A stretch of DNA of 64,000 nt from a virus. Below the pieces are notes generated by a model. That model saw only the letters and a program-made list of their open reading frames with translations. It was not told the origin of the DNA and ran no database searches. The stretch covers positions 81,427 through 145,426 of the IMG/VR virus record IMGVR_UViG_3300027714_000004; one strand, written 5' to 3'. The translations under genes were made by a program, and so were the position numbers. Below, one piece after another: positions 41,111 through 46,324 of the stretch. The number at the start of each line of letters is the position of its first letter. Position 1 is the stretch's first letter.

Positions 41111-41566
41111 ATGAGTAAAATATTAGCATACACGCATAAAGATACTGGAGAAGTTACTTCGGTAGTTACAATGTCTCTAGACGGTGGTTGTCCGGAAGAT
41201 GGTGAAAGTGTAGGTGATTCTATTGTAAGAGACATTACCGACATTGCTCAAGATGATTGGGCTTCGTACTCTGAAACTAAGTACTGGGATAATGGTTGGG
41301 TTACCCGTGGAGAGAAACCTTCGTCAAATCATATATGGCAAGACGGTGAATGGGTATTCAATGTAGTACACTTCTCTTTTCAAGTTCGTATAAGAAGACT
41401 AGAACTTCTAAATCAAAGTGACTGGACTCAAATGCCAGACAGTCCTCTATCCGAAGAGATGAAGACTGCATGGGGAGAGTATCGACAAGAACTCCGTGAT
41501 ATGACCATACTTCTTTCGGATATAGTCTCCGAAGAAGAACTTGATTGGCCTGCAACCCCAGAATAA
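41111..41566 (+). CDS. Tail fibre assembly chaperone-like protein
   Basis: SDWTQMPDSPL....W..YRQELRDM...WP..P motif. Confidence 0.8.
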   Translation: MSKILAYTHKDTGEVTSVVTMSLDGGCPEDGESVGDSIVRDITDIAQDDWASYSETKYWDNGWVTRGEKPSSNHIWQDGEWVFNVVHFSFQVRIRRLELLNQSDWTQMPDSPLSEEMKTAWGEYRQELRDMTILLSDIVSEEELDWPATPE

Positions 41567-41685: not shown

Positions 41686-44325
41686 GTGTCCGCATCCAGT
41701 ATACCCCTAAAAATTAAAAATAGCGCAGGTGACCTACAGGAATTCAGCCCCGAAGAAGAAATGTTTCTTGCGGTAAAATTGGGAGAGTCTTTATCAGAGT
41801 CTTCTGCTGGTGATATCGGAGACATTAGTCTAACGGGTGATGTTAATATAGGATCGTTTGTAGACACGTACTACAACGAAGTTACGGGTACTCACCCAGC
41901 ATCAAACATTACAGGAACTACCGTTACTACTACATTAAAACAGGTAGGTGGTTCTGCGTCAGAGACTGGATCAGATTTCATAAGACCTATAGGTTATTAT
42001 CAAAGCAGTTCAAATGCTGGATTCTACGATATGGTAGATCTAGATTTGAATAATTTAACAACTCGTGCACTGAGAACTGTTGAGACATTAGGTCTTCAGG
42101 GTACATTCGAATTATCATCAACTACGCCAGGCACTGATTGGGTAAAACATGTAGATAACGTGTTTACAGATACCATCGGTGACGGTACCTCGGTAGTATA
42201 CCATATTTGGAAACGTGTGACACTAGCAACTCCACCAGCGGGTCTAGCCACCGTACGACCAATGGCAACAACTTATGACGGATCTACCTTTGATGGGTTT
42301 AAAGAAATGTCAGACGATCAGATCAAGGCTACCCTTGGTCAACGTGCTAAAACTCTTCGAGCAACAGTAGGATCTATTGGTTCTTATCAGTTGCGTTCAT
42401 CCGCTCAAGGAGCTCCCACTTCAGCAGGTACTTGGGATGCACGTGGTTCTGCTACTAATACTCAACGAACCCTTGTTGACGCCGACTATTCTCGTACTCG
42501 TAATTCTGCATATACTCGCACTAGAGTTTCTGCATATTCACGTGATCGACAGTCTACATATACCCTAGACCGCACAGAATCATTCTCAAGGAATTTTACT
42601 GGTGACTTCGCTGGTACATATACTAGAGACTTCGCTGGTACATATACTAGCGATTTTACTGGAGTATATTCTAGAACTCGTCCTTCAACATATAGTCGTA
42701 GTAGACTAGAGGCATTCACTGGTTATTTTGCGGGTACTTATAATCGTGCACGAGTATCTACCTATACTAGTGATAGGATAGAAGGGTTCTCTTCAGCATA
42801 TTCACGTGCACGAGTATCTACCTATACACGTAGTCGTATTACCGACTTCGCTGGAAACTTCGTTGCAGGATATTCTAGAGGATTTGCTTCAGATTATTCG
42901 CGAACCTTTATCGGTGCATATTCATCTTCTTACTTTGGTGATTTTGTAGGAAACTATGCTCGTACTTCTACTCTAGTTTCCACACGCACTCGGTACTCTA
43001 CATACACACGAAATAGTATAACTAACACTCCCGTCTCTTATATGGGTAATTTCGTAGGGTATTATACTGGAGATTTCGCAAGTTCATACTCAAGAACTAC
43101 ATCGGGCACATATGCTCGGACGTTAGCATACTCTCGTACACTGTATTATACTGTTAGTTTCGTAGGAAACTTTTCTCGCGCAGCTGCGGGGTATTACACC
43201 GGAAACTATGCTCGTACACGAGATATGTCATATTGGGCATATTACGCTCGTAATATTGCTTACACAGGGTATTACTCTCGCAGCGCCAGTCAAGGTGCAT
43301 CATATTTCAGAAACATGGTGTCTACTCGTTTCCGATATGGTACTACCAGAAACGCTCAGGCATTTCCCAGCGACACCTCTCTCGACGGTAATTTAATTAT
43401 ACCTTGGTATTTTGCGGGGGACTTTGCAACTGCATTTGAATATGTTGCATACTACCCAGGCGGCACCTACACACGTTCAAGACTTGTCTCTAACACTTAT
43501 GCCAGAGTCATCCCCCTCTACTACGTGGGAAATTATAGTAGGACTGTAGGCGTTAACTACGTAGGTAACTATGCGAGAACGCGTGTAGCAAGCAGTCAAG
43601 GTACTGGTTACTATGCGACCACCTCAAACTACTCTTCTTCATACACGGGATATTACTCTAGAAACCAGACTCTTACTTATGCTGGTGCTTATGCACGAGC
43701 TCGTGCGAGTGTTGTACAAGATACATTTGTAGGTGACTACGCAAGAACATTTGCAGGTGCCTTCTCTAGTCAATTTGTTGGCGAATATACCACAACATCT
43801 ACAAGAACTCGATTAGCTTCGTTTGTCAGAAATAGAGTGCAGGCGTATACGAACACACGATCTTCGACATATTCTCGTGATCGTGTTGCTAATTTTGCAG
43901 GAGAGTTTACTGGTAACTACACAACAACATTCTCTGGAGACTATTCTCGAACCTTTGCTGGTAACTTTGTAGGTAACTATACCACAACCTTTATTGGTGA
44001 CTTTGCAGGAGCATATGCTAATACCTTTACAGGAGAATTTGTTGGAGACTTCACTACTAATTATGTAGGCAACTATAGTCGTGTACGTGTATCTGCGTAC
44101 GCTCGACTACGTACCTCAACCTATACTGGCCCTTACACAAGTGACCGCGCATCGACGTACATCGGAAATTTCACTTCGGACTACACGCGTGAATTTGTTG
44201 GAAACTATTCGAGAGATTTTGCTGGTCAATATTCACGTGCTTACCTCGGAAACTATACTGGTACAACTATTAGTGATGTGATCTATACCCCAGAAACATA
44301 TACCTTATACGTAAGGATTGCATAA
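41686..44325 (+). CDS. Virion protein with an about 590-aa mirror-complementary tetrapeptide-repeat hairpin
   Basis: About 268-aa N-domain, then period-4 aromatic repeats with antiparallel R/G complementarity. Confidence 0.75.
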   Translation: MSASSIPLKIKNSAGDLQEFSPEEEMFLAVKLGESLSESSAGDIGDISLTGDVNIGSFVDTYYNEVTGTHPASNITGTTVTTTLKQVGGSASETGSDFIRPIGYYQSSSNAGFYDMVDLDLNNLTTRALRTVETLGLQGTFELSSTTPGTDWVKHVDNVFTDTIGDGTSVVYHIWKRVTLATPPAGLATVRPMATTYDGSTFDGFKEMSDDQIKATLGQRAKTLRATVGSIGSYQLRSSAQGAPTSAGTWDARGSATNTQRTLVDADYSRTRNSAYTRTRVSAYSRDRQSTYTLDRTESFSRNFTGDFAGTYTRDFAGTYTSDFTGVYSRTRPSTYSRSRLEAFTGYFAGTYNRARVSTYTSDRIEGFSSAYSRARVSTYTRSRITDFAGNFVAGYSRGFASDYSRTFIGAYSSSYFGDFVGNYARTSTLVSTRTRYSTYTRNSITNTPVSYMGNFVGYYTGDFASSYSRTTSGTYARTLAYSRTLYYTVSFVGNFSRAAAGYYTGNYARTRDMSYWAYYARNIAYTGYYSRSASQGASYFRNMVSTRFRYGTTRNAQAFPSDTSLDGNLIIPWYFAGDFATAFEYVAYYPGGTYTRSRLVSNTYARVIPLYYVGNYSRTVGVNYVGNYARTRVASSQGTGYYATTSNYSSSYTGYYSRNQTLTYAGAYARARASVVQDTFVGDYARTFAGAFSSQFVGEYTTTSTRTRLASFVRNRVQAYTNTRSSTYSRDRVANFAGEFTGNYTTTFSGDYSRTFAGNFVGNYTTTFIGDFAGAYANTFTGEFVGDFTTNYVGNYSRVRVSAYARLRTSTYTGPYTSDRASTYIGNFTSDYTREFVGNYSRDFAGQYSRAYLGNYTGTTISDVIYTPETYTLYVRIA

Positions 44326-44434: not shown

Positions 44435-44896
44435 ATGAGTCGTAAGCAGTGGATGGATAATGCATTCTGGGAAACGGATGAAAAGAAAGAACTGAACTGT
44501 ATCCTAGAACTTGAAGATGATGTTGGTCGTGTAACACGTCAACAGATGCTTTTACACCGAACTAACAAAGATGGTAGTGATAACGATCTTTTCAATGAAG
44601 TTATTGAATCGGTAGGTGAAGCATCTATTGATAAGGAAACAACTGATCGAGTTATCCGTAAAACTGCCGAAGTTGAAGAAGAGAAGTTGCGAGACGATGA
44701 GCATCAAAAAGCACGTAAGCTCGAAAAACTTTTTAATTATAAGATGGAAGCTTTCGAAGTGGATGAGATTAAACTCTCCAAAAACCGAAAGTTAAAGGCT
44801 AAGTTGCGCCGTGCTAAGTCAAAGATTGAAGTCGATCTATACTCAATCATGATTCTACAAGAGCAACTAGAGGCCACGGAAGATGGAAAAAAGTAA
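44435..44896 (+). CDS. Hypothetical charged helical protein
   Basis: GGAG RBS; overlaps the glycosyltransferase start. Confidence 0.7.
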   Translation: MSRKQWMDNAFWETDEKKELNCILELEDDVGRVTRQQMLLHRTNKDGSDNDLFNEVIESVGEASIDKETTDRVIRKTAEVEEEKLRDDEHQKARKLEKLFNYKMEAFEVDEIKLSKNRKLKAKLRRAKSKIEVDLYSIMILQEQLEATEDGKK

Positions 44897-45620
44897 AGGA
44901 TTTCTAATAGTTGCGTCTAAGAAACGTAACTTCTACTTATACGCTATTAATCTTGCAGAGTCTCTTAGGGATTACTATGATCCTGAAGATGAATGTAAAA
45001 TTTGTTTAGTGACAGAGGAACAGTTCCTAGACGACCGTGGTAGAGACGTTGCGGACGATATCATCTTTTGTGATGACCATTATCGCGCTAAGTTATGGGG
45101 AATGTCTCAGTCTCCATATGACGTGACAATGTATATTGATGCCGACATGGAATGTGAACACGAAGATATTATCAAAGTATGGGATGAGATGAAAGACCAT
45201 GATTTGGTATTCACTGCTCTCACTGATGACCGTGATTATATTTACGCGGAACGGGATTTCTCCACACCAGAAGGTATGTCGAAATTTACTTTGTGCGGTG
45301 GTGTATGTTTGTATGATATGTCTAAACCAATAGTCCGTGAGTTCATGGATGATTGGTGGGACTTAACATATCGACAGATGAACAATACTTGGTGGCCCAA
45401 GGGTTATATAGAAAGTCTCAAAGCTTGGGATCAGTTCTCACTTTGGTGGTTGACCGAGAAAGAAGACAAATATAAAGATCTCAAGATCGGTATCTTTGAT
45501 GACGACTTGAGGTGGAACTATTATAACGCTCTGAACTGGGCGATCACAAAACCGGAGAACGGGCCAGTGATTCTGCGTCACTTCTCTGCGGGTTTAAATA
45601 AGGATACTCCAATAGTATGA
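44883..45620 (+). CDS. GT-A fold glycosyltransferase-like protein
   Basis: KL..MSQSPYDVTMYIDAD (DxD), GGVCLY, WDQFSL, RWNY and ILRH motifs. Confidence 0.75.
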   Translation: MEKSKGFLIVASKKRNFYLYAINLAESLRDYYDPEDECKICLVTEEQFLDDRGRDVADDIIFCDDHYRAKLWGMSQSPYDVTMYIDADMECEHEDIIKVWDEMKDHDLVFTALTDDRDYIYAERDFSTPEGMSKFTLCGGVCLYDMSKPIVREFMDDWWDLTYRQMNNTWWPKGYIESLKAWDQFSLWWLTEKEDKYKDLKIGIFDDDLRWNYYNALNWAITKPENGPVILRHFSAGLNKDTPIV

Positions 45621-46324
45621 TACAGGTAAACGACCAATATCTCAAACATGTCGAGGTTAATAACCCTGAACTACTTGAGATTCTAGAACAGTACTCCAAG
45701 TTACATACCACAGAAGGTTTTGAAGAAAACTGTCACTTGAATTCTGCTCAACATATTCGACAACGCGCATACTATGTGGGCGAAGATCATAAGAATGAAA
45801 TTGTTGGTAAGGGAAACAAACACGAAGGGTTTCCGGACGAACTAGTTGGATACAACTTCAAACTTTCTGAGAAAGCGCATAAGATGTTTGCACCGGATGC
45901 AGATCCAGTTTTCAAACGTGATATGACTCTACATCTCCGTGACCTAAACGATAAGATGATGAACTTCTTGTCCGTTAAACACAATGCACTTGCAGCAGTA
46001 TATCCGCCTGGCGGATTCATCTCGTGGCACAACAATGCAAATGCACCTGGCTTTAACTTAATCTTCTCCTACTCAGAAGACGGTTCTGGTTACTTCGAAT
46101 ACATCCACCCTGAGACTAAAGAAGTCATTCGTTGTCAAGATGAATCGGGTAAGTGGACTTGTAAGGCAGCGTACTTCGGTCACTACGGTGAAGAAGATAA
46201 GGTTATGTACCATGCTGCGTCTACAGAAGACTGGCGTTGTACTGTATCATATGTCTTTGATCGAACAGAAGCGTCTATAGACTTCCGTGAAATGGTCGTG
46301 ACAGATATTGAATCTGCGGAATAG
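45617..46324 (+). CDS. 2OG-Fe(II) oxygenase-like (DSBH) protein
   Basis: YPPGGFISWHNN...YHAA....WRCTVSY layout (H, distal H, R). Confidence 0.6.
   Translation: MIQVNDQYLKHVEVNNPELLEILEQYSKLHTTEGFEENCHLNSAQHIRQRAYYVGEDHKNEIVGKGNKHEGFPDELVGYNFKLSEKAHKMFAPDADPVFKRDMTLHLRDLNDKMMNFLSVKHNALAAVYPPGGFISWHNNANAPGFNLIFSYSEDGSGYFEYIHPETKEVIRCQDESGKWTCKAAYFGHYGEEDKVMYHAASTEDWRCTVSYVFDRTEASIDFREMVVTDIESAE

What the first reader, a model, noticed from the sequence alone, without database searches (positions are those of the whole stretch)
42490..44256. A protein 'reverse-complement' code: 44 tetrapeptides pair in exact antiparallel register
Seen in sequence: the repeat region of ORF 41686-44325 parses into period-4 units. 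Take the first 44 units (SRTR NSAY TRTR VSAY SRDR..., nt 42490-43017) and the last 44 (...VGNY SRDF AGQY SRAY LGNY, nt 43729-44256), pairing unit i with unit 45-i without gaps. Of the 18 Arg-ending units, 15 face a unit with Gly at position 2 (SRTR/LGNY, TRTR/AGQY, SRDR/VGNY, SRSR/VGDF, NRAR/IGDF, SRAR/SGDY, AGTY/ARLR, TGVY/SRVR, FGDF/TRTR and others). The other 3 face Ser or Ala. Thirteen of the 18 partners have D/N/Q at position 3, and two Arg-ending units never pair. R-rich and G-rich blocks alternate in opposite phase on the two arms. The pattern continues inward (MGNF/ARAR, VGNF/ARTR, ARTR/VGNY), and the arithmetic midpoint (about 43373) falls on the non-repetitive turn-like segment FPSDTSLDGN. 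Inference: the chain folds back into a hairpin of about 295 residues per arm (about 100 nm if extended), possibly oligomerised like the out-and-back T4 gp37 needle, but held in register by an Arg-into-Gly knob/hole code rather than His-iron sites. I know of no described fibre family with this code.
Basis: partly seen in the sequence, partly recalled or inferred. Interest (0 to 1): 0.95.

Follow-up and report, generated by a model that had tools for sequence, protein, structure and literature searches.

The report
Self-pairing fold-back phage fibre protein
A tail-module protein of an uncultured marine T4-like phage most likely runs out as about 280 residues of four-residue repeats, turns, and pairs with itself all the way back. 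The pairing follows a simple rule (arginine faces glycine, serine or phenylalanine, never arginine), and I found no fibre of this design described.

Summary
In ORF 41686-44325 (879 aa) the stated pairing gives 15 of 18.

At residue level, the antiparallel register i+j=1123 (0-based) is the best of all 1757 registers. All 64 arginines of the repeats face G (24), F (16), S (10), Y (7), A (4) or other residues (3), and none faces R. Block-preserving shuffles never reached the observed R:G count (0 of 20,000).

The same register can be predicted from two conserved anchor motifs alone, without using R or G. It is the top register in 29 of 97 relatives (528-1494 aa). Arm types are swapped between relatives. 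Insertions and 2-residue phase slips occur in pairs at equal depth on both arms.

AlphaFold2 places the C-terminal 20 residues back on the N-terminal domain with high confidence, but it cannot model the repeats.

Best reading: a fold-back beta-ribbon fibre of roughly 90-100 nm with a conserved base and a variable tip, encoded in the baseplate/fibre module. The oligomeric state is untested.

There is no match in Pfam or PDB, and I found no paper describing it. The closest analogue is the T4 gp37 needle.

This scan has already noted the same kind of protein on other DNA at least ten times. Those are unchecked AI notes, not independent evidence.

The parts
41686..44325 (+). Whole gene (GTG start, 879 aa, protein P0001): fold-back fibre protein
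   Evidence: The GTG start and the N-terminus are shared with the Phage C48C1 homologue. There are 194 near-length relatives and 322 clusters carrying the N-domain.
41686..42489 (+). Conserved N-terminal globular domain (aa 1-268), taken to be the base of the fibre
   Evidence: AF2 pLDDT is mostly above 90. Nearly all invariant alignment columns lie here. The best structural matches are MABP / perforin C-terminal beta-prism-like domains at Z 6-6.8, which is weak.
42490..43323 (+). Outward (N) arm: aa 269-546, period-4 repeats with Y/F/R at position 4 and R/G/S at position 2
   Evidence: It pairs with the C arm at i+j=1123 (0-based).
43324..43419 (+). Turn / tip: aa 547-578, non-repetitive, contains P, G and D; the centre of symmetry is at aa 561.5
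   Evidence: The complementarity score fades beyond depth of about 532-556. Five of the 11 amino-acid changes seen in the repeat region of a near-identical marine strain lie at aa 491-511, next to this segment, and three more (aa 553, 557, 562) lie inside it. The tip is not conserved among relatives.
43420..44256 (+). Return (C) arm: aa 579-857, the mirror partner of the N arm
44257..44322 (+). C-terminal tail (aa 858-879) with the conserved ETYTLYVR motif; predicted to dock as a strand onto the N-domain
   Evidence: AF2 pLDDT is 89-97 for about aa 860-879, and strand 837-877 lies beside strand 250-291. The same is seen in P0143. The motif is nearly invariant.
41111..41566 (+). Upstream neighbour: tail-fibre assembly chaperone-like protein (context only)
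   Evidence: PF16778 Phage_tail_APC at E 2e-14 and phrog_4912. The same gene order is found in Phage C48C1.
44435..46324 (+). Three small downstream ORFs, syntenic with C48C1 CDS0202-0204 (context; function unknown)
   Evidence: One search shows the synteny. The only family signals are a sub-threshold GT2 hit at E 0.004 and atlas leads below 0.9.

Best explanation
The gene encodes a fibre (or whisker) protein of a marine T4-like phage.

Proposed path of the chain:
- It leaves a conserved N-terminal domain.
- It runs outward for about 278 residues as an extended strand of tetrad repeats.
- It turns in a roughly 30-residue non-repetitive tip.
- It runs back antiparallel and in strict register.
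- Its last 20 residues re-join the N-terminal domain.

How the register is set: positions 2 and 4 of each tetrad lie on one face of the ribbon, and that face carries a size and charge complementarity. Each rung has at most one arginine. That arginine faces a small residue (Gly, Ser) or Phe. Aromatic residues face aromatic residues. Arg never faces Arg.

How length evolves: tetrads are added or lost on both arms at the same depth.

Inferred roles: the conserved base attaches to the baseplate, and the variable tip and the Arg-rich shaft (net charge +33, no Lys, His or Cys) contact the host surface.

What is shown: the mirror complementarity, its conservation, the swapped pairs, the paired indels, and the genomic context.

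What is predicted: closure of the tail onto the N-domain.

What is inferred: beta-ribbon geometry, a length of about 90-100 nm, virion location, oligomeric state and function.
For: 1. Register specificity in this protein. K=1123 is the top of 1757 registers (R:G 25 against 9.3, z 5.5). Block shuffles reached the observed R:G count in 0 of 20,000 trials, and R:R is 0 against an expected 6.7. The partners of the 64 Arg are G24, F16, S10, Y7, A4, other 3 and R0, whereas shifted registers give R:R in 120 of 475.

2. Prediction from anchors. The register can be predicted from two anchor motifs alone (a W-containing motif at the end of the N-domain and the C-terminal YTLYV motif). It ranks first for R:G in 29 of 97 relatives of 528-1494 aa, and first in 10 and within the top three in 19 of 79 further representatives.

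3. Covariation. P0006 and P0022 have the arm types swapped but keep the same register. Over the first 24 rungs of 126 proteins there are 355 R:small and 279 small:R pairs, both orientations occur at the same rung, and there are only 22 R:R pairs. Shifted registers give 86-136 R:R. Family-wide partner preferences computed without P0001 are G x1.64, F x2.11, S x1.31, Y x0.52, R x0.39 and K x0.17.

4. Paired irregularities.
- Two-residue phase slips occur at the same depth on both arms.
- The kink landmarks NPNA and LGP lie at depths 45, 49, 53, 65 and 73, with a constant offset of -9 in 14 of 16 proteins.
- Insertions are matched: +16/+16, +24/+24 and +4/+4.
- P0001 against P0009 shows +36 aa on each arm at depth of about 56-100.
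- P0022 against P0010 shows +2 and -2 matched at depths 19/22 and 152/149.

5. AF2 closes the C-tail onto the N-domain with pLDDT about 90 in two members.

6. There is no DNA-level inverted repeat, so the symmetry exists only in the protein.

7. Context. The gene lies in a T4-like baseplate/fibre module with homologues of gp48, gp5, gp6 and gp8, a Phage_Tail_Tip protein and a fibre chaperone.
Against: - AF2 gives pLDDT of about 30 for the repeats in both models, so no structure or contact map supports the ribbon.
- About two thirds of family members, mostly Arg-poor or very long, do not show the fixed-register R:G signal. An aromatic-ladder test did not single out the predicted register.
- The 3347-aa C48C1 homologue does not follow the terminal register. 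It has an internal register instead.
- P0146 has an unmatched 12-residue deletion.
- Relatives share ancestry, so counts across them are not independent events.
- No cultured phage carries the protein, so there is no virion or EM evidence.
Confidence: 0.75

Rival explanations
1. The pairing is real but lies between chains. Fully extended chains lie head-to-tail as an antiparallel dimer (or a higher oligomer). Residue i of one chain faces residue K-i of another, and the C-tail docks onto the partner's N-domain (a domain swap).
For: Sequence complementarity and covariation cannot tell intra-chain from symmetric inter-chain antiparallel pairing. A monomer AF2 model would dock the tail on its own N-domain in either case.
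Against: The centre of symmetry is a non-repetitive segment containing P, G and D. Its length varies freely among relatives (31-47 residues between kink landmarks, not multiples of 4), and it is the most variable part. That is as expected for a loop, not for a segment that pairs with its own copy. A fibre with attachment domains at both ends also fits poorly with a baseplate-module gene (inference).
Confidence: 0.1
2. The repeats form an ordinary one-way trimeric shaft (a triple beta-helix or beta-spiral type), or are a flexible low-complexity spacer. In that case the mirror pattern does not reflect physical contact.
For: Short Gly/aromatic repeats are common in phage shafts (my own knowledge of the T4 gp5C VxGxxxxx repeat and the adenovirus shaft). 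AF2 gives pLDDT of about 30, as it does for disordered regions.
Against: This reading offers no reason for:
- a single antiparallel register predicted by the termini;
- zero R:R in 64 Arg;
- swapped pairs;
- paired indels;
- the C-tail returning to the N-domain.
The best parallel offset reaches only z 2.4. There is no Pfam or PHROG fibre-repeat hit.
Confidence: 0.05
3. The pattern is a chance or inherited quirk of the conserved terminal repeats, passed to all relatives, and places no constraint on the interior.
For: The register relative to the anchors would stay constant if only the first and last few tetrads were conserved. Relatives are not independent samples.
Against: The signal extends about 270 residues deep in P0001 and about 200 residues in P0006, P0008 and P0013. 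The base-proximal rungs themselves differ and are swapped between relatives. Interior landmarks move by equal amounts on both arms.
Confidence: 0.03

Closest known systems
Needle (domains D10-D11) of the phage T4 long-tail-fibre tip protein gp37 (described in PMC6957217; PDB 2XGF from my own knowledge)
   Same: - It is a phage fibre element in which the chain goes out and comes back. The base domain D10 is made of the segments flanking the needle (residues 811-881 and 1010-1026), and D11 is residues 882-1009.
- Glycines that must face a bulky residue are essential there too: G921 against F970, and G964 against H929.
- Here likewise the N-domain end and the C-tail form one base, and small residues face bulky ones.
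   Different: - gp37's needle has roughly 64 residues per arm, is a trimer, and is held by seven iron ions bound by His motifs.
- This protein has about 278 residues per arm, and relatives have needles of 106 to 2099 residues in all.
- It has no His at all in the repeats and a strict period-4 covarying code.
- It has no detectable sequence similarity to any PDB chain.
- Its oligomeric state is unknown.
One-way trimeric shaft repeats of phage and virus fibres (T4 gp5C octapeptide beta-helix, gp12/gp34 repeats, adenovirus triple beta-spiral; my own knowledge, and PMC5537660 for gp34)
   Same: Short, Gly- and aromatic-rich sequence repeats that build a thin beta-structured fibre. The gene sits in the fibre/baseplate module.
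   Different: Those chains run one way, and the C-terminus is distal. Here the sequence is self-complementary in antiparallel register and the C-terminus returns to the base. None of the Pfam or PHROG fibre-repeat families match.
RNA stem covariation and coiled-coil knobs-into-holes (analogies in principle only)
   Same: The register is specified by a simple pairwise complementarity. It is kept by compensatory changes (R:small to small:R) and by paired insertions.
   Different: This is a protein beta-type pairing with a degenerate size/charge rule. It is neither base pairing nor heptad packing. No homology is implied.

Membership tests
T4 gp37-type fold-back needle | The chain runs out and back, and the segments flanking the needle form one base domain | tested here: met
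   Antiparallel self-complementarity is anchored at both ends of the repeats. AF2 docks the C-tail on the N-domain. This is a prediction and sequence inference, not a structure.
T4 gp37-type fold-back needle | His-x-His motifs that coordinate iron along the needle | tested here: not met
   There are no His residues among the 589 residues of the repeat region.
T4 gp37-type fold-back needle | Detectable sequence or profile similarity to gp37, gp12, gp10 or gp11 collar/needle sequences | tested here: not met
   phmmer with P0001 and hmmsearch with the A2 profile against all PDB sequences gave no relevant hit. Pfam gave none.
T4 gp37-type fold-back needle | Collar-like fold of the base | tested here: inconclusive
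   VIA-align gives only weak matches of the base region to T4 gp11 (1el6_A, Z 2.7, 49 aligned residues, 24% identity) and to a Klebsiella phage KP1 baseplate chain (9f4b_FD, Z 2.8, 45 aligned).
T4 gp37-type fold-back needle | Homotrimer | not testable with these tools
It needs SEC-MALS, EM or a full-length multimer prediction.
One-way trimeric beta-helix / beta-spiral fibre shaft | Unidirectional chain with a distal C-terminus and no antiparallel self-complementarity | tested here: not met
   The antiparallel register is the top of all registers (z 5.5), while the best parallel offset reaches z 2.4. The C-tail is predicted at the base.
Phage tail fibre / baseplate appendage (functional class) | Encoded within the baseplate/tail-fibre gene module | tested here: met
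   The neighbours match baseplate hub, wedge and tube-cap proteins, a tail-tip fibre protein and a fibre chaperone. The same synteny is found in Phage C48C1.
Phage tail fibre / baseplate appendage (functional class) | Present in the virion and projecting from the baseplate | not testable with these tools
   No cultured phage carries the family. C48C1 is the only GenBank record with it.

The most novel reading that the evidence does not exclude
A new class of fibrous protein in which a single chain forms a 'protein stem' hundreds of rungs long. Its register is written in a covarying pairwise residue code (at most one Arg per rung; Arg opposite Gly, Ser or Phe; aromatic opposite aromatic). Its length is tuned in evolution by inserting tetrads on both arms at once. 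This gives needles from about 50 to more than 1000 residues per arm within one family of marine T4-like phages.
Probability: 0.55. Interest if true: 0.9.

Novelty: new variant of a known kind. Interest (0 to 1): 0.8.

Why it matters
If the reading holds, it adds a new way to build a long, thin, length-adjustable protein fibre. It would also be a rare case where long-range register in a protein can be read directly from sequence, much as in an RNA stem.

It would explain a family of large 'hypothetical' proteins in marine T4-like phages: 322 clusters of 50% identity carry this N-domain. It would also point to the hairpin tip and the Arg-rich shaft as candidate host-contact surfaces.

The simple code makes clear predictions that can be tested by compensatory mutation. 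It could also serve as a design rule for engineered beta-ribbons.

Tried and rejected
- Complex prediction with three copies of the needle part of the short relative P0143 (residues 236-397, alignment A2) returned 'no answer', score 0.00 (after six unanswered attempts). It says nothing either way.
- AF2 monomer models of P0001 and P0143 leave the repeats at pLDDT 25-40, so the proposed anti-diagonal contact check could not be made.
- Foldseek against PDB and BFVD gave nothing at E <= 0.001. VIA-align wide gave best Z 6-6.8 for the N-domain only.
- The protein atlas found no named cluster for P0001.
- An aromatic-ladder (Y/F opposite Y/F) test did not single out the predicted register, because all same-phase registers score alike.
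- Greedy register tracking and gapless segment scoring on the 3347-aa C48C1 protein were uninformative.
- DNA-level explanation: there are only three short inverted repeats of up to 21 nt, and Arg/Gly codons are not reverse complements of each other. Rejected.
- Four literature searches on cyanophage or myovirus fibres, fold-back and beta-hairpin fibres found no description of this family. A search for 'C48C1' found no phage paper.
- Five short contigs of a marine metatranscriptome library lie on parts of the gene. This does not show transcription, and uncovered parts show nothing.
- Pairwise arm alignments in the long R-rich relatives are mostly too ambiguous to place indels. Only the clear cases are cited.
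Full report
**What is there**

ORF 41686-44325 (+ strand, GTG start) encodes 879 residues. Its layout is:
- residues 1-268: a non-repetitive domain;
- residues 269-857: tetrad repeats, with Y/F (or R) at position 4 and R/G/S at position 2;
- a 22-residue tail ending in the motif ETYTLYVR.

Pfam has no match, and PHROGs has only a non-significant one.

The window is part of a 145-kb IMG/VR virus record, 88% complete by CheckV. The surrounding genes are a T4-like baseplate and fibre module. They include a tube cap, hub/lysozyme, gp6-like and gp8-like wedge subunits, a fibre-connector-like protein, a Phage_Tail_Tip protein, and a Phage_tail_APC chaperone directly upstream.

The only GenBank phage with a homologue is Phage C48C1, filed under Kyanoviridae. 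It has the same gene order, and its homologue is 3347 aa long.

**Checking the observation**

The 44+44 unit pairing is exactly as described: 15 of 18 Arg-ending units face a unit with Gly at position 2, the other three face Ser or Ala, and no Arg-ending units face each other.

A unit shuffle gives 6.1 +/- 1.85 hits. The stated register is the best of 88 circular shifts in both orientations. Because the arms have period-8 block structure, I also used stricter nulls.
- Residue-level scan: counting R at i with G at K-i over all registers gives 25 at K=1123 (0-based) and 19 at K=1125. Same-phase neighbours average 9.3 (z 5.5). The best parallel offset gives 18 (z 2.4).
- Block shuffles over 272 rungs: with blocks of 8 or 16 residues, the observed 24 R:G pairs were never reached in 20,000 trials (8-residue blocks: mean 11.3, sd 2.7). 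The observed zero R:R pairs has P of about 1e-4, against a mean of 6.7.

At K=1123 the 64 arginines of the repeat region face G 24, F 16, S 10, Y 7, A 4, other 3 and R 0. At eight shifted registers, 120 of 475 partners are R.

The register is the best or near-best in every 24-residue depth window from residue 268 to about 532. The paired arms are therefore about 278 residues each.

The repeat region has no Lys, His or Cys and a net charge of +33.

There is no DNA inverted repeat that could create the symmetry.

**Relatives**

A word-indexed search found 194 relatives of similar length and 93 shorter ones. An exhaustive search with the N-domain alone found 322 clusters at 50% identity. Complete members have needles of 106 to 2099 residues.

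I predicted the register in each relative from two conserved anchors only, without using R or G. The anchors are a W-containing motif at the end of the N-domain and the C-terminal YTLYV motif.
- In 29 of 97 relatives (528-1494 aa) that register ranks first of all registers for R:G.
- In a further set of 79 representatives it ranks first in 10 and within the top three in 19.

This is not just inheritance of conserved ends.
- P0006 and P0022 have the arm types swapped (N arm Gly-type, C arm RxR-type) at the same register.
- Over the first 24 rungs of 126 proteins, both orientations occur at the same rung. There are 355 R:small and 279 small:R pairs, with only 22 R:R. Shifted registers give 86-136 R:R.
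- Partner preferences of Arg computed without P0001 are G x1.64, F x2.11, S x1.31, Y x0.52, R x0.39 and K x0.17.

So the rule is wider than Arg-into-Gly. There is at most one Arg per rung, and it sits opposite a small residue or Phe.

**Paired irregularities**

- In many relatives the period-4 phase slips by two residues at the same depth on both arms.
- In the short subfamily a kink motif on the N arm (NPNA) and one on the C arm (LGP) serve as internal landmarks. Their depths are 45, 49, 53, 65 or 73 residues on the N arm, with an offset of exactly -9 to the C arm in 14 of 16 proteins. One protein has an unmatched 12-residue deletion.
- The alignment shows +16/+16, +24/+24 and +4/+4 insertions.
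- For the window's own protein, comparison with P0009 shows 36 extra residues on each arm at depth of about 56-100. P0022 against P0010 shows +2 and -2 indels matched at depths 19/22 and 152/149.

**Structure prediction**

AlphaFold2 was run with family alignments.
- It models the N-domain with pLDDT above 90.
- It places the last 20 residues or so (pLDDT 89-97) as a strand beside the last strand of the N-domain. This holds both for P0001 and for the 397-aa relative P0143. The chain is therefore predicted to return to its start.
- The repeats themselves are modelled at pLDDT 25-40, so no contact map can be read.

Structure searches gave only weak matches. The N-domain matches MABP / perforin C-terminal beta-prism-like domains at Z 6-6.8. 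The base region matches T4 gp11 and a Klebsiella phage baseplate chain at Z 2.7-2.8. Sequence and profile searches of the PDB found nothing.

**Interpretation**

The simplest account of all this is a physical fold-back.
- The two arms lie antiparallel, residue i next to residue 1123-i.
- Positions 2 and 4 lie on one face. Steric and electrostatic complementarity on that face sets the register.
- The conserved N-domain plus C-tail form the base. The variable turn forms the distal tip.
- At about 0.33 nm per residue for an extended strand (textbook value), 278 rungs give about 90-95 nm.

The genomic context suggests a baseplate-attached fibre.

A symmetric inter-chain antiparallel arrangement would leave the same sequence signal. 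I consider it less likely, because the centre is a variable-length loop-like segment containing P, G and D.

The oligomeric state is open.

**Limits**

- About two thirds of family members, mostly Arg-poor or very long, do not show the fixed-register R:G signal.
- The 3347-aa C48C1 protein lacks the terminal register. It has a strong internal register centred at residue 1331.
- Counts over relatives are not independent events.
- There is no virion, EM or expression evidence.

The gene occurs almost unchanged in marine metagenomes: 20 of the listed runs, from 14 studies, hold all or part of it. One run tiles the gene with 22 substitutions and no indel, and none of the substitutions touches an Arg or Gly of the code.

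**Comparison with known systems and novelty**

The closest analogue is the T4 gp37 needle.
- Same: out-and-back topology, a base domain formed by the flanking segments, and essential Gly residues facing bulky residues (PMC6957217).
- Different: about 64 residues per arm, trimeric, iron-stapled through His motifs, non-periodic, and unrelated in sequence.

I found no paper, Pfam family, PHROG annotation or solved structure describing a fibre with a periodic, covarying antiparallel pairing code.

I file it as a new variant of the fold-back phage-fibre kind. There is a substantial chance that it is a new fibrous architecture.

Earlier AI notes of this scan describe the same kind of protein in at least ten other genomes and reach the same reading. 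I formed my reading before seeing them. They are not independent evidence.

Noticed in passing
window:27406-31452 (+), 1348 aa: A second protein in the same module has no PHROG hit. It carries the same kind of Y/F-period-4, R/G/S repeats at aa of about 385-720 and 820-1165, around a non-repeat centre (about 720-820). Its best antiparallel R:G register is centred at aa 727.5 (R:G 20, R:R 1), but only at z 3.6, with several near-equal registers. P0001 hits it in the own-genome search.
   Followed up: partly
L001:9001-19044 (Phage C48C1 CDS0201, 3347 aa): This giant homologue shares the N-domain and C-tail but does not show the terminal-anchored register (34 against a mean of 41.9). Instead, arm windows 900-1220 pair strongly at an internal register centred at aa 1331 (24 against a mean of about 2.7, sd about 3). 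This suggests several hairpins or a more complex path.
   Followed up: partly
window:44435-46324 (+): Three small ORFs follow the fibre gene and are syntenic with C48C1 CDS0202-0204. The middle one has only a sub-threshold GT2 hit (E 0.004). For the last one the atlas gives only leads below 0.9, to 2OG-Fe(II) oxygenase and Asp/Arg hydroxylase clusters. Whether they modify the fibre is unknown.
   Followed up: partly
window:42490-44256 (+): Arg opposite an aromatic residue strongly prefers Phe over Tyr. In P0001 the counts are 16 F against 7 Y, although Y is 1.8 times commoner (Fisher P 6e-4). Family-wide, F is x2.11 and Y is x0.52. Lys is absent from the repeats.
   Followed up: yes
window:43157-43369 (+): In a near-identical marine strain (run X8), 8 of the 11 amino-acid changes in the repeat region cluster at aa 491-562, next to the predicted tip. 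None changes an Arg or Gly of the code.
   Followed up: partly
alignment A2, protein P0146: One short family member lacks 12 residues on the C arm only, between the kink landmark and the base. This is the single clear exception to paired indels.
   Followed up: no
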